59,463 bases of DNA. Source: Escherichia phage Skure. A program made the position numbers and the translations under genes. The DNA is taken from sequence record MK672798.1. One strand, given 5' to 3'. This document shows positions 2,219 through 55,076 of this stretch, one piece after another. The notes beneath the pieces are model-generated. The model ran no database searches and was not told the DNA's origin. It saw nothing but the letters and a program-made list of their open reading frames with translations. Numbering within the stretch: the stretch's first letter is position 1; each line of letters starts with the position of its first letter.

Positions 2219-3715
2219 ATGGGTATTGATGCAACTCACCCGCTATATGACAAGTGGAAGGACGCATGGGTTAAGTGCAACGACTGCTATGAGGGTGAAG
2301 ATAAAATTAAGGAAGAAGGTGTTAAATATCTACCACCTTTAGCTTCCATGATTATTGATGGGATGAATAATCCTAATGATTTGGGCTTTCAACGTTGGCT
2401 CGCTTATCGTCTGCGTGCCAACTTCCCTGACGATTATTCAAGTGCGGTTACAAACAATTTAGGTCTGCTGCACCAGAAGCCCCCTACAATCCAGCTTCCA
2501 CCTGAAATGGAATACATGCGGGAGCTGTGTACTGCGGACGGTGAAGACATTATTGCTCTGCTACGTCGCATCAATGAAATGCAGTTAAAAAATGGGCGTT
2601 TGGGGCTGCTGCTGGACTTGCCTAAAGGTGAGGATGTAAATAACAGACCTTATATTAGTGTTTATGATGCTTTATCCATTATCAACTGGGATGATGGTAA
2701 AGATGAATTGGGTAATATCAACTTGAACATGGTTGTTCTGGATGAAAGCGGCCCTGTACGTGTCAATCAGTTTGACTGGAAAGAAGAGAAGCGTTATCGC
2801 GTTCTACAATTAGGTCCAATGGACACAGATGAAGTTGCAGGTGGGGCGGTCTACTCCCAACATCTGTTTATTAACAATACCAATTATGATGAAGGGCAAA
2901 TGATTGCTCCTTATTATAAAGGTAATACGCTGGATGAAATTCCTTTCCAGTTTGTCAATACAACAGATATTACCCCAGCACCGGAAGCGCCGCCATTGTT
3001 GGGTCTTGCTAACATTTGTCTAAGCATGTACCGAAGTGACGCGGATTACCGCCAATGCTTGCATATGCAGGGTCAGGATACTTTAGTTGTTGTTGGTGGT
3101 TCCATGGAAAATGGAGATAAAGCCCCTCAGCGTATTGGTCCTGGTGCAGTCATTAACGTTTCTCAGGGAGGTGACGCTAAATATGTAGGTGTTAGCGGTG
3201 ACGGTTTGTCCGAGCAACGTCTCGCACTGGCAGCGGATAAGCAGGAAGCCCAAATTAAAGCCGGGCAAATGGTAAACAATACCAAGAGTACGCAGGAATC
3301 AGGCGAAGCTATGAAAACGCGTATTGCTGCGCGTACAGCTAGTTTGATTCGAATTGCGTATACTGGTGCGGCTGGTTTGGAGAACTTGCTGAAGGTTTGC
3401 GCTAAGTGGATGGGTGCTGATCCCGAGAAAGTTGTGGTCAAGCCTAATCTTGAATTTACCAAGAGCATGTTTAACGGTCAGGACTTTGTTCAAATTATTA
3501 CTGCACGCAACCTTAAGGCTCCGATTAGCTTGCAGTCTATTCATGGCTGGCTTGTTGATCAGGGCTTAACCACACTAAGCTTTGAAGAAGAAATGGCAAT
3601 TCTTGAAGAAGAGCTTAAGAAGTGGCCTCTGCCCGATGATGCTAAAGCTGATTTAAACGCAGAGCAGCAAGTAAGCAAAGATCCTAAGGAAGACGACGCT
3701 TCCGATAAAGAATAG
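2219..3715 (+). CDS. portal protein
   Basis: 498 aa ORF directly after terminase; GGAGGG RBS; acidic C-terminus. Confidence 0.7.
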   Translation: MGIDATHPLYDKWKDAWVKCNDCYEGEDKIKEEGVKYLPPLASMIIDGMNNPNDLGFQRWLAYRLRANFPDDYSSAVTNNLGLLHQKPPTIQLPPEMEYMRELCTADGEDIIALLRRINEMQLKNGRLGLLLDLPKGEDVNNRPYISVYDALSIINWDDGKDELGNINLNMVVLDESGPVRVNQFDWKEEKRYRVLQLGPMDTDEVAGGAVYSQHLFINNTNYDEGQMIAPYYKGNTLDEIPFQFVNTTDITPAPEAPPLLGLANICLSMYRSDADYRQCLHMQGQDTLVVVGGSMENGDKAPQRIGPGAVINVSQGGDAKYVGVSGDGLSEQRLALAADKQEAQIKAGQMVNNTKSTQESGEAMKTRIAARTASLIRIAYTGAAGLENLLKVCAKWMGADPEKVVVKPNLEFTKSMFNGQDFVQIITARNLKAPISLQSIHGWLVDQGLTTLSFEEEMAILEEELKKWPLPDDAKADLNAEQQVSKDPKEDDASDKE

Positions 3716-18627: not shown

Positions 18628-19254
18628 GTGGGAGATATTATGGCGACTCGTTTATACGGCGTTTTATTGGATGGTTTGAATAAACCTATTATCAACGCCA
18701 CAGTAGCACTTATTTCGAAAGGAAATACTCTTACCGTATTAAACGGAAGCGAGGCAATATTCCGTACAGACGCACAAGGTGCGTATAACGTAACAGTTCA
18801 GACTGGTCGTTATAAAGTTATTATTGGACCGCAAGGTATTGAGCCATATAAAGCTGGTGAGATTGTTATTTATTCAGATAGTAAAGAAGGTTCACTAAAT
18901 AACTATCTTACTAACTGGGTCCCGGAGGAATTAACTCCGGAAGTAATTGCACAAGTAAAAGAACTTGTGGCTAATTCTGAAGCCTATGCACTCCAAGCAG
19001 GTCGATCTGCGGCTTCTGCACAAGCGGACGCTACCGATGCGCGTAACAGCAAGGCAGCTTCTGCAACGTCTGCGGCGGAAGCATTGACTTATAAAAATGA
19101 CTCAAAGGCAAACGCAGATGCAGCTAAACAAGCCCAAGCTGGAGCGGCGGGATCTGCTAACACTGCAACACAAGCTGTAACCACAGTTACTCAGCTTAAA
19201 GCTGATGTTGCTCAGTTAAAACAGATACTCAAGCAATTAAAGACTCCGCGTTGA
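18628..19254 (+). CDS. tail fibre protein, N-terminal segment
   Basis: 208 aa; Ala-rich coiled-coil C-terminal part shares composition with the start of the next ORF, which overlaps in the -1 frame. Confidence 0.55.
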   Translation: MGDIMATRLYGVLLDGLNKPIINATVALISKGNTLTVLNGSEAIFRTDAQGAYNVTVQTGRYKVIIGPQGIEPYKAGEIVIYSDSKEGSLNNYLTNWVPEELTPEVIAQVKELVANSEAYALQAGRSAASAQADATDARNSKAASATSAAEALTYKNDSKANADAAKQAQAGAAGSANTATQAVTTVTQLKADVAQLKQILKQLKTPR

Positions 19255-20612
19255 CTGAAGTCGCAACAGCTAAAGCCGACGCAGTCAAAGAAGTTAATAC
19301 AGCTAAAACATCGGGTGTTGCTGCGGTCAACACCGCTAAGACGGAAGCAATTAATGCAATAACCCCGCTAAAAGACGCTGCCGCAGCTTCTGCAACTCAA
19401 GCGGGTGCTAGTGCAACCGAAGCGGTGAAACAAGCTACAGCAGCCGCAGGCAGCGCTGCAACCGCAGGGCAGAAAGCTACCCTAGCAACAGAGGAAGCTA
19501 ACCGCGCGAAAGGGTATGCGGATTCAATGGACCCCTCCAGCATAGCTAAACTTGATGCTGAAAATACTTTTACCAAAAAGCAGAAGTTTAACCTTAATGC
19601 AGAATTTGGGGCAAACGCTGGTAATCCTCTTTTAATCAAGAGTGTTAACCCAACAATTAAATTTGAAGAAGTTGACGCCACAGGTGATGTAACTGGCTAT
19701 GTTATGGTCATGGAGGGCGGTAACATACAACTCCAGGAGAACGATACTGGTAGCACTAATGTTGTCTTTAACTACAGCGCTTCAGCTAAAACAGTCAGGC
19801 TACCATCTCACAAGACTGGTTCATTTGGGGAAGTTGGTCAGCTCAGGACAACTGGGAGTTATAGTCAAGACAGCATATTAATTAGAGCGACGGGAGCGGG
19901 TTCGGCTTACACAGCTTATACCGGATCTTCCAGTCCATCTATTGTAAGATGGCGATCAGGGCTTGCTACCAGCGGGGGCTATGCATTCTACAACTACAAT
20001 GAGGATGGCACGTATCATTCTACTCCGGTAGCCATTGGGGGTGCGGGTACTGGGATTGCAATTGCGTTCTCTACCAATATTACCGGGCGAATTACAGCAG
20101 GTGGCGGGGACGCAGGAACCGACGCTGCAACGTTTAGATCCAATGGTTCAGCGTCTTATGTTTGTAACTTAGCATCAAATGGAGTTATTCGAACCCGTGT
20201 GGGATTTAGCGACACTGTAGGGAGCTATGGATTTCAAACATATACCACAGCAGGTTCGCCTGAGTATTGGATTAGACTTCCGAGTGCTGGCGGAACCCTT
20301 GCACTGCAAGGAACATCGGGCTTAGCATATAAAAAGGCGATCAATGACGGTAATCCTATTGATGCTTTAAACCGCATCATGGCACAACGCATGGTCACTT
20401 TTATTTATAAGGACGATAAACAAGAAAGAATAAGATTTGGTATTATTGCAGAAGAATCGGAGAAAGTCACACCACAATATGTGAAGCACAATGAAGAGAT
20501 TTATGAGGATGTATACGAGGATGTTATACGAGGATGTACCTGTAGAGGTTACTGTAGATCATACCGACCCCGAAACTGGTATTACAGAACAAATCAAAGA
20601 ACAACGCATTGA
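19251..20612 (+). CDS. tail fibre protein (central/distal segment), TTG start in ORF track
   Basis: 453 aa; Ala-rich N-terminus, Gly/Ser/Thr-rich body; its C-terminus begins an intramolecular-chaperone-like region (GIIAEESEKVTPQYV); frame 0 is open from 19206. Confidence 0.6.
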   Translation: MTEVATAKADAVKEVNTAKTSGVAAVNTAKTEAINAITPLKDAAAASATQAGASATEAVKQATAAAGSAATAGQKATLATEEANRAKGYADSMDPSSIAKLDAENTFTKKQKFNLNAEFGANAGNPLLIKSVNPTIKFEEVDATGDVTGYVMVMEGGNIQLQENDTGSTNVVFNYSASAKTVRLPSHKTGSFGEVGQLRTTGSYSQDSILIRATGAGSAYTAYTGSSSPSIVRWRSGLATSGGYAFYNYNEDGTYHSTPVAIGGAGTGIAIAFSTNITGRITAGGGDAGTDAATFRSNGSASYVCNLASNGVIRTRVGFSDTVGSYGFQTYTTAGSPEYWIRLPSAGGTLALQGTSGLAYKKAINDGNPIDALNRIMAQRMVTFIYKDDKQERIRFGIIAEESEKVTPQYVKHNEEIYEDVYEDVIRGCTCRGYCRSYRPRNWYYRTNQRTTH

Positions 20613-20805
20613 ACAGAAATTTATTCGTCGTGAAGTCGAGAAGAAAATTGTTTCACAGAAGACCCGAGACAGACCTTCAATTGATACTAACCCTATTGTT
20701 ATGGACTTGATGGGCGCCACTCAAGCGCTCAAAGCAGAAATTGATAGTTTGAAAGCGGAGATAGCTGCGTTGAAGGGCAATGTGGTTAATAACAATCTGC
20801 CATAA
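20491..20805 (+). CDS. C-terminal intramolecular chaperone-like segment of the tail fibre, in +1 frame relative to 19251-20612
   Basis: Ends ...ALKAEIDSLKAEIAALKG, resembling the tail-fibre intramolecular chaperone C-terminus; frame joins the upstream ORF if one T is removed from the tandem repeat at 20505-20540. Confidence 0.45.
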   Translation: MKRFMRMYTRMLYEDVPVEVTVDHTDPETGITEQIKEQRIEQKFIRREVEKKIVSQKTRDRPSIDTNPIVMDLMGATQALKAEIDSLKAEIAALKGNVVNNNLP

Positions 20806-20816
20806 CCACAATAATT

Positions 20817-20845
20817 AAGGAGCCAAACGGCTCCTTTTTTTTTTT
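20817..20845 (+). terminator. rho-independent terminator after tail fibre genes
   Basis: AAGGAGCC-aaac-GGCTCCTT followed by ten T. Confidence 0.75.
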
Positions 20846-21066
20846 AGTTGTCACTTTCTCACCTACCTGCGACCGCACCGCGTTTAAACATAACTCCCTC
20901 CTTTTGTTCAAGTCGTGACGTCCATTGCATTATAAGGGTACCAATGCCAGGCTATTTACAATTTATTTACACGCATATCATGGTAAATAATATGTTAACG
21001 AGTATACTTACCAGCGTAACCCGTTGGTTACATCCGCTTAACAAATCCATATATGGAGATTTTCCT

Positions 21067-21774
21067 ATGTCTGACATGACTCTTTTACCTACTAATCTCG
21101 GTGGCGACGGTTTCGGTGGTGAAGCTGGTGCGGCTGGTATCGGTGGCGCGATCGGTGGCTTAATTGGTTCCTGGATCGGTAATGGTTGGGGTGGCAATGG
21201 TGGTTGGGGTGGTCGCGGTAACTTCGCTGGTCCGGTAGAAGTGCAAGCTTCTGTTGACACCAACGCAATTCTGCAAGCTATCAACAACGGTACTCTTCAG
21301 ACCATTCAGGGGTAGAACGGTACTAACCTGACTGTTGAGCGCTCCGCTGCTTCTACCTATAACGGTATTACTCAGCAGAACACTCAAAACCTGCTGGCTT
21401 CCGTTCAGGGCTTTGCTGGTCTGAACACGCAAATCCAGGGCGGCACCAGCCAAGTGCTCGCGGCTCTGTGTAACAACGAAGCAGCTAACATTACCCGCTC
21501 CTTCCAGGCTCAGTTAGAAGCTCAGAAGTGTTGCTGCGAAACCAACCTGAACATCGAGCGTCAAGCAGAAGCTACTCGTGCTCTCCTGCGCGATCAGCAC
21601 GCACAAGCGCAAGCTGTTCTGATCTGTGACCTGAAGTCCCAGTTGCAGGAAGCTCGCTTTGCAAACTCTCAGTTGGCGCAGACGGCTGGCCTTACCTGTA
21701 AAATCAATCAGGTTGAGCAGTTAGTTAACTTTAAACTGCCAACTCCTCCAACTCCTCCGACTGGCTGCTGCTAA
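21067..21774 (+). CDS. Gly-rich N-terminus / Cys-containing C-terminus protein interrupted by in-frame TAG at 21313-21315
   Basis: ATG 21067 with GGAG RBS; same frame open on both sides of the TAG; coding-like composition continues 46 codons to the annotated downstream ORF 21454-21774. Confidence 0.4.
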
Positions 21775-21845
21775 TCGTTGAAGTGCGGTTAAACTAAAGC
21801 GCCTTTCGCTCCTCCGCTTGGGGCGCTTTTAACAGAGGTAATATC

Positions 21846-22229: not shown

Positions 22230-22760
22230 ATGCAAAACGTAAACGCAGGAATGGGCGTAACCCAGTTCAACGGGATGAAACCGAAAAACTCCATCAACAT
22301 GGGCGGTGTTGATTGGACGTTACGTCGGGACGCTACCGATTCAACTACCATGTTCCCACACCAGAAGGTGAGCTGGCTTAATGCTGGATGTGAACCTATG
22401 GGTGATGGAAGGGTTCATTACTGTTGGATTATGGGAGTGATACCGCCTACGCCGGGCACTATCGAACGACCCGTGAATGTGATGTATGTCGGCTTCCACC
22501 AGTTCAAGATCACAATTGCTCCAAACTCCATTAGTCAGTCAGATCTTGATCGTATGCATGTTTACGTCAGCGATGGTACAGACTTCGCAGGGGATTTTAT
22601 TAGTAAGTTTCTTGGTATGCAACCAGAGCAGCCTGTAGAAGTACGCGAGCATATTAGCCCGTGGCCACCCATGATTGATCAGGAAGTGCTGCAACCAAAG
22701 ACCGCTCAAACGGTCCCTCAGAAACCGGAGCAGAAGGTGAAACCAAATGACGAAGAATGA
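22230..22760 (+). CDS. hypothetical protein
   Basis: 176 aa ORF with RBS at distal end of late operon. Confidence 0.4.
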   Translation: MQNVNAGMGVTQFNGMKPKNSINMGGVDWTLRRDATDSTTMFPHQKVSWLNAGCEPMGDGRVHYCWIMGVIPPTPGTIERPVNVMYVGFHQFKITIAPNSISQSDLDRMHVYVSDGTDFAGDFISKFLGMQPEQPVEVREHISPWPPMIDQEVLQPKTAQTVPQKPEQKVKPNDEE

Positions 22761-23042: not shown

Positions 23043-23246
23043 ATGTGTGGTAATACTAACCGTTGCTGTCTAGGCAGTCCTGCAACACAAGCAGGTATAC
23101 TTCAGGGGCAATTAGCTCAAGCAGCGTGTAATTGCAAAACTTTTCAACCAGTAGCGCCAACTCCTGTGTTTGTGAATGCTTTTGCACCGCCTGTTTTCAA
23201 TACTTTTGGCGTATACCCATACGGTGCTTTCTTTCGTATATTCTAA
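23043..23246 (+). CDS. hypothetical Cys-containing small protein
   Basis: 67 aa, GGAGG RBS, last + strand gene before bidirectional terminator. Confidence 0.3.
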   Translation: MCGNTNRCCLGSPATQAGILQGQLAQAACNCKTFQPVAPTPVFVNAFAPPVFNTFGVYPYGAFFRIF

Positions 23247-24864: not shown

Positions 24865-26850
24865 TTAGGCGTATCCCATGTCTTCGAGATACTTCTCTGC
24901 TTTAGCTATATAAGCATCATAATCTATGTCGTCCGGTATTTTATCCGGTAGCGTCATAATCGGGACACCTCCCGCGCTACCAGCTACACGGTTGCCCGAG
25001 TTAGCATAGATTATTTCAGGTGTTTCTTCATTAGTGCTTAAGTACCAGCGTACAACCTTACCCAAAAATTCGCCATTCCATACCGCGCCGCCTTTTACCG
25101 CACGTAGGATAATGAATTTTCTAATATCGTTGCAATTGCGTATAGTACGAGAAACAGGCGTACCGTGGGCCAAACATTCACATACAGCTTCCATAATGAT
25201 CTCACCAGTACAGTTCTTTTGAAGACCTGTCTTTGCGAACCACCCTTTACGTTTAATTTCAACATTTCCTTCCTTGTCAGGTTCTTTTACTGCAACATAG
25301 TTATTGACGTTAGCACTGTACAGCTTGTCATAGTAGTTGGATTCCATTTCAAAACCTGTTACGGATTCCCACCACTTGATCATATTATCAACGAAGTCCT
25401 GCATGTGGTCTGGATACTTAACCACAATGCCGTCCGTGTTGGCTGAAATTACTTTAACACCATTCAATTCAAATGCTTCAATAAGCATCAATAGTGAAAG
25501 TTGTCCAGTTAATGTAACTTGTATCAATAATTGAGGCGCGTACAGTACAGACCACATGGACCCCAACTTACCAAACGATCCGTTGATAACGATCTTCAGC
25601 GTGTTGGCTGTGTTCTTGTCCCCGCTGTGCTTTGCAGCAATACGTCGGTCTACAATACTTTTATAAACACGAAGGAACGCTGGTCCTAACTGTTCTGGAT
25701 ATAATCCCTGATTAAGAATAATTGAAGGATAATAAGACGTTACGTCAATGTCCCGCTTTTTGATACCTGGCTCTTTACCGTGCCCAGCACACTCTTCGGA
25801 GCTATGTAAACCACCAATACCCATACGGTACACACCGTCCGCAATCTTGATCTCAAGACCTGTTAATGCAGGAGGTAAGCTAACACCACCGTTATCGCTA
25901 ACAATAAAGCGACAGTCCCGAACAATATCCAAAACACTATTCATCAAAGGTGTTTGAAAACGAATAAAGTCCGGTATGTTGTATGCATACTTTGTTCCAG
26001 GATAAACTTGCGGACGCTGTGGGCGCACGCCCGTTAACGCTTGAATTTCGTGCTTAATTACGTCTTCTGCAATCTGTGCATCGGAGCGTGAACGTAGATC
26101 CACACCGTATTCTTGCGACATAATTTCACGCAAGTGAATAGGCTCTTGCAATGCAATAAAACATTCTTCTGTCTGTACAAGGTCGTTAATACAGTACCAG
26201 CGCACAATAAGCATCTGGTCTTGCGTCAACATTGTATTAGGCTTGAACGGTAAATCCTGCATACGACGAGTATGTACACGTCCGCCGTATTGTTTCAAAC
26301 CGCCGGACCCAGGCAGCACTTCCATGATATCAATGTGGTTAACGTTCTGCATACGCTTGAGACGGTAACTTTTCAATACATCCGAAGGACGCCAGTCTTC
26401 AACGATTATCTTATCGGTCGCGTCTTTAAGCTGCGCATTAGAACAGCCGTTAAGCGCAAGCGTAGCAATGGGCATATCGTACCCGTTACCGTTAAAGCTT
26501 ACGATAAGGAAGTTTGTCATTACCCAGTTAAGTAATAAGCAATTCAAACTACAACCGTGATACATCTCGAAGTAGACAACTTTCTTAGTTCGCACTCCGC
26601 GAAATGCAATTAAAAAATAATTTGGATAACATTCTATATCATATACAAGCGGTTCGCGGTTAATCCATGCTTGAATAAGTTCGTCCTGTGTGTACAGGTT
26701 GTATTGGAAGTTCCGCGCTTCCTCAAGATTAGGCAAATAATCCGGGCGCTCCCAAGTGCGCTCCGGCGGTAAACGTTTAACCTTTTCTTTTTTTGCTTTT
26801 GGCTCAGGCGGTAAGTCCTGCCAAAAGAAACCAATAGCATCTGTCCGCAT
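24865..26850 (-). CDS. DNA polymerase, family B, with 3'-5' exonuclease domain
   Basis: Exo motifs YDIECY, FNGNGYD, YCIND; polymerase motifs DVTSYYPSI (A), KIVINGSFGKLG (B), ANTDGI (C); start ATG 26850 overlaps upstream stop (TAATG). Confidence 0.8.
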   Translation of the reverse strand: MRTDAIGFFWQDLPPEPKAKKEKVKRLPPERTWERPDYLPNLEEARNFQYNLYTQDELIQAWINREPLVYDIECYPNYFLIAFRGVRTKKVVYFEMYHGCSLNCLLLNWVMTNFLIVSFNGNGYDMPIATLALNGCSNAQLKDATDKIIVEDWRPSDVLKSYRLKRMQNVNHIDIMEVLPGSGGLKQYGGRVHTRRMQDLPFKPNTMLTQDQMLIVRWYCINDLVQTEECFIALQEPIHLREIMSQEYGVDLRSRSDAQIAEDVIKHEIQALTGVRPQRPQVYPGTKYAYNIPDFIRFQTPLMNSVLDIVRDCRFIVSDNGGVSLPPALTGLEIKIADGVYRMGIGGLHSSEECAGHGKEPGIKKRDIDVTSYYPSIILNQGLYPEQLGPAFLRVYKSIVDRRIAAKHSGDKNTANTLKIVINGSFGKLGSMWSVLYAPQLLIQVTLTGQLSLLMLIEAFELNGVKVISANTDGIVVKYPDHMQDFVDNMIKWWESVTGFEMESNYYDKLYSANVNNYVAVKEPDKEGNVEIKRKGWFAKTGLQKNCTGEIIMEAVCECLAHGTPVSRTIRNCNDIRKFIILRAVKGGAVWNGEFLGKVVRWYLSTNEETPEIIYANSGNRVAGSAGGVPIMTLPDKIPDDIDYDAYIAKAEKYLEDMGYA

Positions 26851-54596: not shown

Positions 54597-55076
54597 ATGG
54601 AAGTTACTGAAGCTGCTAAACGCATGGTAAAATTCTATGTCGGTTCTGATGCACCTTTAATTCGCGCTTTTGGTCAGGAACTTTATGTTTTCCAGGGCGA
54701 TCGAGAGGAGGCTGAAGAAATTGCTCAGGCAATCCTCGATCTGCAAGCAAAAGCGGATCGTGCGGAAGCCCTTGAAGCAGAATGGCGAGCTCAGGAAGAA
54801 CGTGCTGAAAATGCTGAAACGAATCTTGTCAACATGCGTGCTGCTGAGCACGCTCTATCCGATTCTTATATTCGTTTGCGTCAAATTGTTGGTGCAATGA
54901 ACCCGCCTGGTGTGAGCAGCGAAGAGGTGTGGGCGCATACCGAGAAGAAGGCTCAAGAGTTGCGTGATCGTTGCGAAGCTCTGGAAGCTGTAGCAAAGGA
55001 CTTCCTGCGCCGTAACAAATATGGTCCTTTGTTCTATCGTGATTTGTATAACCGTTTTAAGGAGATTGTGGAATGA
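54597..55076 (+). CDS. hypothetical protein (coiled-coil)
   Basis: Start at ATG 54597 with GGAG RBS. Confidence 0.45.
   Translation: MEVTEAAKRMVKFYVGSDAPLIRAFGQELYVFQGDREEAEEIAQAILDLQAKADRAEALEAEWRAQEERAENAETNLVNMRAAEHALSDSYIRLRQIVGAMNPPGVSSEEVWAHTEKKAQELRDRCEALEAVAKDFLRRNKYGPLFYRDLYNRFKEIVE

What the first reader, a model, noticed from the sequence alone, without database searches (positions are those of the whole stretch)
21067..21774. In-frame amber codon interrupting a Gly-rich / Cys-containing gene
A gene starting at ATG 21067 encodes a Gly-rich segment and then hits TAG at 21313-21315. The same frame stays open with matching Asn/Thr/Gln-rich composition for 46 codons into ORF 21454-21774, which ends in a Cys-containing segment. 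There is no ATG start in that stretch. This looks like one roughly 235-codon gene with an internal amber codon: nonsense mutation, stop-codon readthrough or sequencing error.
Basis: seen in the sequence. Interest (0 to 1): 0.55.

Follow-up and report, generated by a model that had tools for sequence, protein, structure and literature searches.

The report
Natural amber mutation beside tail-fibre gene
A conserved phage gene of unknown function, sitting just after the side tail-fibre gene, carries a genuine CAG-to-TAG stop mutation that is shared with two other independent sequences and looks like ordinary gene decay, not programmed readthrough.

Summary
ATG 21067 opens a 235-codon frame ending at TAA 21772-21774, and its only interruption is TAG 21313-21315 (codon 83). 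The window is a Seuratvirus (Queuovirinae), almost certainly Escherichia phage Skure, which was isolated on E. coli K-12 MG1655.

Every intact relative has one ~233-aa protein (phrog_9288, function unknown) with CAG (Gln) at codon 83. That Gln is kept in at least 90% of 32 diverse homologues. The lesion is therefore Q83am in a gene under strong purifying selection elsewhere.

The same TAG occurs in phage SeppeHuegi (Switzerland) and in a Logan contig from SRR35114254. This rules out a sequencing error.

Recoding is not supported. There is no suppressor tRNA, no genome-wide TAG recoding, no RNA structure and no conserved stop.

The gene always follows the lateral tail-fibre (LTF) gene. It is damaged independently in many phages by deletions, frameshifts, fusions and another amber in T5-like phages. 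In this window the LTF gene itself carries two frameshifting deletions, while no other gene shared with SLUR25 is disrupted.

Best reading: a real nonsense allele in a dispensable accessory gene of a decaying LTF module, comparable to the stf frameshift of lambda PaPa. Interest is low to moderate.

The parts
21067..21774 (+). Interrupted gene of family phrog_9288 (ancestrally 235 aa plus stop). It has a Gly-zipper-like N-terminus, a conserved Q/N-rich core, a long predicted helix with an invariant CCC motif, and a PTPPTPPTGCC tail.
   Evidence: phrog_9288, 1-235, E 1e-129. (169 homologues, nearly all 225-237 aa). (alignment A2). (AlphaFold2 model, low confidence: residues 1-65 without secondary structure, helix 89-223).
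21313..21315 (+). In-frame amber codon (Q83am), a CAG-to-TAG transition.
   Evidence: The codon is TAG in the window, SeppeHuegi and the SRR35114254 contig. It is CAG in 10 intact aligned Seuratvirus copies and in the separately frameshifted SRR5886101 contig, and in 2 ENA metagenome contigs. Q83 is at least 90% conserved and G82 invariant in 32 diverse homologues.
21067..21312 (+). The 82-aa N-terminal fragment, the only product expected in quantity on a non-suppressor host. It contains the glycine-zipper-like segment.
   Evidence: translation. (weak Gly-zipper_Omp match in one member). (a distant hit to profile positions 3-37 lies in a protein, P0247, that also matches Pfam glycine-zipper families in a different stretch).
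21454..21774 (+). Mechanical GTG ORF (106 aa). It is the C-terminal remainder of the gene and is annotated as a separate 'hypothetical protein' in Skure and SeppeHuegi. There is no convincing ribosome-binding site, so it is probably not translated on its own.
   Evidence: (exact sequence equals QBZ71652.1 of Skure and QXV84484.1 of SeppeHuegi). The upstream bases were read directly.
20817..20836 (+). Intrinsic-terminator-like hairpin plus T-run that ends the lateral tail-fibre transcription unit upstream of the gene.
   Evidence: A terminator is annotated at the matching place in SA80RD and SA126VB.
20966..20993 (+). Sigma-70-like promoter match (TTTACA, 16-nt spacer, TAATAT) upstream of the gene. 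Consensus match only.
21797..21832 (+). GC-rich hairpin plus T-run after the gene. By its position in the aligned SA80RD and SA126VB loci it corresponds to an annotated rho-independent terminator. The gene therefore looks like its own promoter-gene-terminator unit.
   Evidence: sequence AAAGCGCC...GGGGCGCTTTT.
18628..20805 (+). Lateral (side) tail-fibre gene, broken into three ORFs: 18628-19254, 19251-20612 and 20491-20805. The breaks are a 1-nt deletion in an A-run at about 19217 and an 11-nt deletion at about 20524, inside the C-terminal Peptidase_S74 chaperone region.
   Evidence: compared with SLUR25 SOE45391.1 (725 aa, continuous).

Best explanation
The TAG is a genuine CAG-to-TAG nonsense mutation (Gln83 to amber) in a conserved accessory gene of about 235 codons (phrog_9288, function unknown). 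This gene forms the right-hand edge of the lateral tail-fibre (LTF) cassette in Queuovirinae, T1-like and T5-like siphoviruses.

On the isolation host (E. coli K-12 MG1655, no amber suppressor) translation should stop after 82 residues. That leaves a Gly-zipper N-terminal fragment. From general knowledge, at most a trace of full-length protein would arise by near-cognate Gln insertion, which would restore the wild-type sequence.

The phage grows anyway because the gene is dispensable under these conditions. The allele was not created in the laboratory after isolation and is not an assembly artefact. It circulates in natural Seuratvirus populations and has been carried into different LTF backgrounds.

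In this phage it is one of three inactivating lesions in the LTF module, which is decaying as a unit. This fits lateral fibres and their accessories being unnecessary on an O-antigen-less host.

Shown: the mutation, its sharing across sequences, the conservation of the intact gene, the repeated independent loss, and the broken LTF gene. Inferred: dispensability due to relaxed selection on K-12-like hosts, a functional link to the LTF, and the fate of the truncated product.
For: 1. Homologues are single ORFs with CAG at codon 83. Q83 is at least 90% conserved and lies in the most conserved block of the family.

2. Intact copies show strong purifying selection. Examples: CAjan 11 synonymous and 0 nonsynonymous changes; KS_A8 28 and 5.

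3. The same TAG is in SeppeHuegi and in an SRR35114254 contig. The gene has 31 single-transition routes to a stop, so three hits on one codon indicate common descent rather than coincidence. The window has a SLUR25-type 725-aa fibre and SeppeHuegi a CAjan-type 1026-aa fibre.

4. The probable identity is Skure, isolated on MG1655. The downstream ORF is an exact match, and length, GC content and nearest relative agree with the paper.

5. There is no tRNA gene, no genome-wide in-frame TAG pattern, no special RNA fold and no Rfam hit.

6. The same gene is damaged independently elsewhere:
- SRR5886101: a 1-nt deletion.
- VogelGryff: 3' deletion. KurtStettler: in-frame fusion to an S74 chaperone. 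PLYYY01: only the 3' part remains.
- phiG7: frameshift plus deletion. FritzHoffmann: 43-codon remnant. GottfriedDienst: 50-nt remnant.
- T5-like rokbiter: TAG at the Gln-104 equivalent, followed by decayed sequence.
- Further fragments break at codons of about 80, 95, 116 and 165.

7. Of 89 SLUR25 genes compared with the window, only the LTF gene and this gene are disrupted. Three lesions fall in 5.3% of the genome.

8. Synteny directly after an S74-type fibre gene holds in three phage families.
Against: The function of the gene is unknown, so 'dispensable because LTF-related' is an inference from position and co-decay only.

SeppeHuegi carries the amber with an apparently intact LTF gene, so the amber is not simply part of one decay event.

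CAjan and the slur phages keep the gene intact, and CAjan at least was grown on K-12. K-12 passage therefore does not force loss.

No nonsynonymous changes have accumulated downstream of the TAG in the three carriers. That could hint at continued constraint. The sample is tiny, however: three private downstream changes, all in the contig that was found by exact match to that very protein segment.

A frameshift in SRR5886101 lies only 1-4 nt from the amber. This could point to a local hotspot rather than coincidence.
Confidence: 0.8

Rival explanations
1. Maintained leaky stop. The amber allele would be kept by selection because it sets a ratio of abundant 82-aa N-terminal fragment to rare full-length protein. 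Readthrough would occur either by near-cognate tRNA-Gln or in natural hosts carrying supE-like suppressors. Either route inserts Gln and regenerates the wild-type protein.
For: The TAG replaces exactly a Gln codon, so suppression would be phenotypically silent. The allele occurs in three sequences with different backgrounds. No nonsynonymous change lies downstream in the carriers. Many family fragments consist of the N-terminal part alone.
Against: All other close relatives examined, and every distant family member, have a sense codon there. There is no stimulatory RNA structure and no suppressor tRNA. Truncations in other phages fall at many different codons and are accompanied by frameshifts and deletions typical of decay. 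The lack of downstream nonsynonymous change is uninformative because of ascertainment and small numbers.
Confidence: 0.08
2. Mutation selected, or recurrently arising, during laboratory propagation on E. coli K-12. The full-length protein would be harmful on this host, and a local mutational hotspot (GGGG-CAG) would produce the same lesion repeatedly.
For: Skure and SeppeHuegi were both isolated on K-12 MG1655 derivatives. A 1-nt deletion in the adjacent G4 run occurs in SRR5886101. Three other BASEL Queuovirinae also carry altered copies.
Against: Both phages went through few passages. With 31 equivalent transition routes to a stop, the probability of three hits on one codon is about 0.001 without a hotspot. 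The site is not a Dcm site (CCWGG; sequence read). The G4 deletion is one of five homopolymer runs of at least 4 nt in the ascertainable part of the gene, and it comes from an unpolished assembly. CAjan and the slur phages keep CAG.
Confidence: 0.07
3. Sequencing or assembly error. The true base would be C, possibly miscalled because of 7-deazaguanine modification of the opposite strand.
For: Queuovirinae DNA carries modified G (BASEL paper text). The change corresponds to G-to-A on the complementary strand.
Against: The identical base appears in three independent data sets. Other modified Seuratvirus genomes read CAG. No other collinear gene in the window is disrupted apart from the fibre gene.
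Confidence: 0.02
4. Genetic-code reassignment (TAG read as Gln), as in some crAss-like and Lak phages.
For: A TAG sits at a conserved Gln position.
Against: It is a single instance. TAG terminates 8 of 90 long open frames normally, and the other same-frame TAG junctions are ordinary gene ends, since all SLUR25 genes there are intact. There is no suppressor tRNA, and the host is E. coli with the standard code.
Confidence: 0.01

Closest known systems
Frameshift in the side tail-fibre gene stf of laboratory lambda PaPa (Hendrix and Duda 1992; recalled from memory)
   Same: A lesion in the side-fibre locus of a siphovirus grown on E. coli K-12. It splits one gene into two annotated ORFs, and the phage stays fully viable because the fibre function is dispensable on that host. 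In the window the fibre gene itself is also frameshifted.
   Different: The lesion under study is a nonsense codon, not a frameshift. It lies in the gene after the fibre gene, whose function is unknown. It is shared by at least three independent sequences rather than one laboratory stock.
Classical amber mutants of phages (T4 am, lambda Sam7) grown on supE, supD or supF hosts
   Same: A CAG-to-TAG change. A supE (glnV44) host would insert Gln and restore the wild-type protein (established genetics, from memory).
   Different: It is not conditional-lethal, because the phage was isolated and propagated on suppressor-free MG1655. It was not produced by mutagenesis and is found in environmental isolates.
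Programmed stop-codon readthrough (Q-beta A1 protein at UGA; retroviral gag-pol at UAG)
   Same: An in-frame stop with an open, homologous reading frame continuing behind it.
   Different: The stop is not conserved. Relatives have a sense codon, and there is no downstream stimulatory structure. The upstream part alone is not the conserved unit; the whole 235-aa protein is.
TAG-to-Gln recoded phage genomes (crAss-like and Lak phages)
   Same: A TAG aligned to a conserved Gln.
   Different: There is one site only, no suppressor tRNA, and TAG is used as a normal terminator elsewhere.
phrog_9288 / VOG6360 family (called 'hypothetical protein', or 'putative sugar-binding protein' in some BASEL Drexlerviridae records)
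   Same: With Q at codon 83 the window gene is a full-length member. It has the same position after the S74-type fibre gene.
   Different: The window copy is interrupted. No experimental function exists for any member, to my knowledge.

Membership tests
phrog_9288 protein family (ancestral gene) | Full-length profile match | tested here: met
   residues 1-235 on profile positions 1-233 of 234, E 1e-129, once codon 83 is read as Gln; 169 homologues, mostly 225-237 aa.
phrog_9288 protein family (ancestral gene) | Intact reading frame giving one polypeptide | tested here: not met
   TAG at codon 83. The window copy is a nonsense allele, a probable pseudogene.
Programmed translational readthrough | Stop codon conserved among relatives at the same position | tested here: not met
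   The codon is CAG in 10 intact Seuratvirus copies and 2 metagenome contigs. Gln is present in at least 90% of 32 diverse homologues.
Programmed translational readthrough | Stimulatory context or RNA structure 3' of the stop | tested here: not met
   MFE z-score -0.46 against shuffles; no Rfam family.
Programmed translational readthrough | Detectable extended protein product | not testable with these tools
   Needs a western blot, mass spectrometry or a reporter assay.
Stop-codon reassignment (TAG to Gln) phage | Many in-frame TAGs across genes, with TAG avoided as a terminator | tested here: not met
   TAG ends 8 of 90 long open frames; only this gene has an in-frame stop relative to SLUR25.
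Stop-codon reassignment (TAG to Gln) phage | Phage-encoded suppressor tRNA (anticodon CUA) | tested here: not met
   ARAGORN finds no tRNA gene in the window.
Nonsense pseudogene / natural loss-of-function allele | Sense codon at this position in orthologues, with a single-step mutation to a stop | tested here: met
   CAG versus TAG, a single transition.
Nonsense pseudogene / natural loss-of-function allele | Gene dispensable for growth | tested here: inconclusive
   Indirect only. Carriers were isolated on sup0 K-12, and relatives with deletions of the gene are viable. No knockout was made, and trace readthrough is not excluded.
Nonsense pseudogene / natural loss-of-function allele | Relaxed constraint downstream of the lesion | tested here: inconclusive
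   no nonsynonymous change downstream in carriers. Only about 3 private changes exist, and they are biased by how the contig was found.
Lateral tail-fibre module accessory gene | Conserved position directly 3' of a Peptidase_S74-type fibre gene | tested here: met
   Queuovirinae, Drexlerviridae (aaroes) and T5-like rokbiter.
Lateral tail-fibre module accessory gene | Physical or functional interaction with the fibre | not testable with these tools
   The AlphaFold2 model is low confidence (pLDDT 51). There are no Pfam, PDB or PADLOC matches.

The most novel reading that the evidence does not exclude
The Q83am allele would be a balanced natural polymorphism. It would convert a full-length LTF-associated protein into an abundant 82-aa glycine-zipper peptide plus a trace of Gln-readthrough full-length protein. 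It would be maintained because this is advantageous on some hosts, or because amber-suppressing enterobacteria are common enough in sewage to keep the downstream part under selection.
Probability: 0.08. Interest if true: 0.5.

Novelty: new member of a known kind. Interest (0 to 1): 0.25.

Why it matters
Mostly for annotation and for interpreting phage collections. Skure and SeppeHuegi (BASEL Bas24) each list two 'hypothetical proteins' where there is really one interrupted gene. Skure's lateral tail fibre is also frameshifted, so host-range or adsorption phenotypes measured with these stocks reflect an LTF-module mutant.

The survey also flags phrog_9288 as a widespread, strongly conserved and uncharacterised gene. 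It is tied to lateral tail-fibre cassettes in three siphovirus families and is lost again and again. That makes it a reasonable target for a knockout study on O-antigen-bearing hosts.

It does not reveal a new recoding mechanism.

Tried and rejected
- **Suppressor tRNA.** ARAGORN found no tRNA gene.
- **Genome-wide TAG recoding.** The scan of same-frame ORF pairs and stop usage was negative.
- **Readthrough signals.** The RNA fold (z = -0.46) and the Rfam scan gave nothing.
- **Frameshift rescue at CAG-GGG-TAG.** Reading the sequence, both alternative frames hit stops within 4-6 codons, so this was rejected.
- **Independent initiation of the downstream ORF.** There is no ATG and no Shine-Dalgarno-like sequence near GTG 21454, and the same bases are present in intact homologues.
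- **Function by sequence.** Pfam, PADLOC, PDB sequence search, PHROGs and a 1.84-billion-protein HMM search gave no informative annotation.
- **Function by structure.** The AlphaFold2 model with a 32-sequence alignment had pLDDT 51 (a long helix plus an N-terminus with no predicted secondary structure). No fold search was run, because matches to such a model would be meaningless.
- **More TAG carriers.** Pattern scans of viral, metagenome and genome collections found only CAG alleles. Exact look-ups of five possible N-terminal products (82, 107, 111 and 123 aa of this gene, and the 204-aa fibre fragment) were not on record.
- **Haplotype test for identity by descent.** Inconclusive. All copies are 98-99% identical with mosaic SNPs, and one four-gamete conflict lies 82 nt from the TAG.
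- **Selection test downstream of the TAG.** Underpowered, and biased by how the third carrier was found.
- **Literature.** The Skure and BASEL papers do not mention the amber. The SRA run accessions matched no paper in the literature search, so the runs' origin remains unknown.

Full report
**1. The observation**

Reading the window directly confirms every coordinate in the finding.
- ATG at 21067-21069 opens a frame that reaches TAG at 21313-21315, which is codon 83.
- The same frame then stays open to TAA at 21772-21774, giving 235 sense positions.
- The translation starts with a Gly-rich segment: MSDMTLLPTNLGGDGFGGEAGAAGIGGAIGGLIGSWIGNGWGGNGGWGGRGNF.
- A Q/N/T-rich core and a helical region with Cys residues (CCC, ICD, TC) follow. 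The C-terminus is PTPPTPPTGCC.
- The ORF the tool lists downstream (GTG 21454-21774, 106 aa) is simply the first possible start after the TAG.

**2. What the window is**

- The region is 97-98% identical to Seuratvirus genomes of the Queuovirinae: SLUR25, SeppeHuegi, Greed, CAjan and slur01.
- Over 20 kb the best match is SLUR25 at 95%, so the window itself is not in the phage collection searched.
- The exact 106-aa downstream ORF is deposited as QBZ71652.1 of Escherichia phage Skure and as QXV84484.1 of SeppeHuegi.
- The Skure paper gives 59,474 bp, 44.6% GC and SLUR25 as nearest relative. Its host was E. coli K-12 MG1655, and sequencing used Nextera/Illumina (PMC7552041).
- The window is 59,463 bp and 44.56% GC. 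I therefore take it to be Skure or a near-identical record.

**3. It is one gene, and the stop replaces a conserved glutamine**

- With Gln at codon 83 the protein matches phrog_9288 end to end (E 1e-129).
- It also matches 169 proteins in the 5.8-billion-protein set, nearly all 225-237 aa. They come from Seuratvirus, Nonagvirus, Sashavirus, T1-like phages, Hafnia phage yong3 and Yersinia phage P400.
- CAjan, Greed, slur01, SLUR75, SLUR76, SA80RD and SA126VB annotate a continuous 708-nt ORF. SLUR25, Dru_SM1 and KS_A8 annotate the same frame with an upstream start.
- Alignments show CAG where the window has TAG. Two ENA metagenome contigs also have CAG.
- In 32 diverse homologues G82 is invariant and Q83 is at least 90% conserved. 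Both lie inside the best-conserved block, LQTIQGQNGTNLTVERSAAST...VQGFAGLN.
- Intact copies evolve under strong purifying selection, for example 11 synonymous and 0 nonsynonymous changes in CAjan and 28 and 5 in KS_A8.

**4. It is not an error**

- The identical TAG is present in SeppeHuegi (BASEL Bas24, Swiss sewage), where it is also annotated as two ORFs.
- It is also present in a 3.1-kb Logan contig assembled from SRR35114254.
- The three carriers differ from each other at 5-9 other positions in the gene.
- They also sit in different backgrounds. The window has a SLUR25-type 725-aa fibre and upstream region. SeppeHuegi has a CAjan-type 1026-aa fibre.
- The gene offers 31 single-transition routes to a stop codon. 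Three independent hits on the same codon would be very unlikely (about 0.001), so descent from one mutant allele spread by recombination is the simplest reading.
- The haplotype data are too mosaic to prove this.

**5. It is not programmed recoding**

- The window has no tRNA gene.
- TAG terminates other long frames normally, and no other gene has an in-frame TAG relative to SLUR25.
- The RNA around and downstream of the stop folds no better than shuffled sequence (z = -0.46), and no Rfam family matches.
- Slipping at CAG-GGG-TAG into either alternative frame meets a stop within 4-6 codons (read).
- There is no start-site signal for the downstream piece.
- Above all, the stop is absent from all other relatives examined.

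From general knowledge, residual near-cognate decoding of UAG in E. coli and supE suppression both insert Gln. Any leak would therefore recreate the wild-type protein. That makes the allele a severe knock-down rather than a designed readthrough.

**6. Context: the lateral tail-fibre module**

- The gene lies between a terminator-like hairpin that ends the fibre gene (20817-20836), with a promoter-like site at 20966-20993, and a hairpin plus T-run at about 21797-21832. By position, that hairpin corresponds to the rho-independent terminator annotated in SA80RD and SA126VB.
- In Queuovirinae, in T1-like phages (aaroes and Logan contigs) and as a remnant in T5-like Epseptimavirus, it directly follows the fibre gene, which in the copies with domain data ends in a Peptidase_S74 chaperone domain.
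- Several BASEL Drexlerviridae records call it a 'putative sugar-binding protein'.
- No Pfam, PADLOC or PDB relationship was found. PHROGs gave only phrog_9288 and phrog_16490, both of unknown function.
- The AlphaFold2 model is low confidence (pLDDT 51). It shows no secondary structure in the Gly-rich first 65 residues and one long helix, 89-223. I did not run a fold search on it.

**7. The gene is lost again and again**

Independent lesions were found in many phages.
- SRR5886101 contig: a 1-nt deletion in the GGGG run immediately before codon 83.
- VogelGryff: a 3' deletion that also removes the downstream genes.
- KurtStettler: an in-frame fusion of an S74 chaperone protein to codon 19.
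- PLYYY01: only nucleotides 463-711 remain.
- phiG7: a frameshift near codon 14 plus a deletion after codon 91.
- FritzHoffmann: 43 codons remain. ChristophMerian: about 100 nt. GottfriedDienst: 50 nt.
- T5-like rokbiter: another CAG-to-TAG at the Gln-104 equivalent, followed by frameshifted remains.
- The exhaustive HMM search adds fragments broken at codons of about 80, 95, 116 and 165.

The breakpoints are scattered. The closeness of the SRR5886101 frameshift to the amber is therefore probably coincidence. That run is one of five homopolymers of at least 4 nt in the ascertainable region, and the contig comes from an unpolished assembly. I nevertheless record it as unexplained.

**8. The window's own fibre gene is also broken**

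- Compared with the SLUR25 side tail fibre (725 aa, about 99.5% nucleotide identity), the window lacks one A in an A-run at about 19217. It also lacks 11 nt at about 20524, inside the S74 chaperone region.
- The gene is therefore split into ORFs 18628-19254, 19251-20612 and 20491-20805.
- As a quality control, I compared all 89 SLUR25 proteins with the window by tblastn. Only the fibre gene and this gene are disrupted. Everything else is intact, absent or divergent.
- Three lesions fall in a module covering 5.3% of the genome. The probability that the other two fall there by chance is about 0.003.

**9. Interpretation**

- The amber is a real natural loss-of-function allele (Q83am) of a conserved accessory gene at the edge of the lateral tail-fibre cassette.
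- The BASEL paper argues that these fibres recognise O-antigen glycans. K-12 lacks O-antigen (general knowledge), so relaxed selection on the module during life on such hosts is a plausible cause.
- This cause remains an inference. SeppeHuegi has the amber with an intact fibre gene, and CAjan keeps both genes intact on K-12.
- The closest precedent is the stf frameshift of lambda PaPa.
- Remaining alternatives are a maintained leaky stop (about 8%), a laboratory-selected or hotspot mutation (about 7%), a sequencing error (about 2%) and code reassignment (about 1%).

**10. Verdict**

The phenomenon is ordinary in kind.

Three things have modest value. Two GenBank annotations need correcting. 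Skure is an LTF-module mutant. And phrog_9288 is a conserved, fibre-linked gene of unknown function that is frequently lost.

Noticed in passing
window 18628-20805: The lateral tail-fibre gene is split into three ORFs by a 1-nt deletion in an A-run (about 19217) and an 11-nt deletion (about 20524) relative to SLUR25. The two deletions together total 12 nt, so the last piece returns to the original frame.
   Followed up: yes
L047 (Salmonella phage rokbiter NC_048868) 2501-3000; also P0178: T5-like Epseptimavirus phages carry a remnant of the same gene right after their L-shaped tail-fibre gene. It has its own CAA-TAG-AAT amber at the position equivalent to Gln-104, followed by frameshifted, decayed sequence.
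   Followed up: partly
L013 (Logan SRR5886101_74) about 1348-1360, equivalent to window 21309-21312: A 1-nt deletion in the GGGG run directly before codon 83 gives an 82-aa product plus RTVLT*. This is almost the same truncation point as the amber. It may be coincidence, a homopolymer error or a local hotspot; this is unresolved.
   Followed up: partly
L040 (phage KurtStettler MZ501091) 927-2459: A 510-aa ORF joins a fibre-like protein carrying a Peptidase_S74 chaperone domain in frame to codon 19 of the phrog_9288 gene. It is annotated as 'putative lateral tail fiber chaperone'.
   Followed up: partly
window 21022-21192: A recombination boundary lies inside the 5' part of the gene. Upstream of about 21022 the window is identical to SLUR25 and differs at 12 sites from SeppeHuegi and CAjan. 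Downstream it follows the common Seuratvirus sequence. The gene marks the right edge of the exchangeable fibre cassette.
   Followed up: partly
window 23043-23246: A small 67-aa ORF (MCGNTNRCCLGSPATQAG...), Cys-rich with a Pro-rich and hydrophobic tail, is conserved in all Seuratvirus relatives examined. It is the last of four genes following the interrupted gene on the same strand (122, 176, 94 and 67 aa). T1-like phages have a similar downstream set of three small genes (about 107, 165 and 80 aa). It has no family annotation.
   Followed up: no
P0149 (223 aa, metagenomic): An in-frame deletion fuses codon ~165 of a phrog_9288 homologue to the middle of the homologue of the window's 176-aa gene (22230-22760). 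This removes the C-terminal helix and the intervening gene.
   Followed up: no
window 54759-55073, compared with SLUR25 CDS 24944-25483: One early gene matches SLUR25 only over its C-terminal 105 residues. About seven small SLUR25 ORFs have no counterpart or only a weak one in the window. This is ordinary accessory-gene mosaicism.
   Followed up: no
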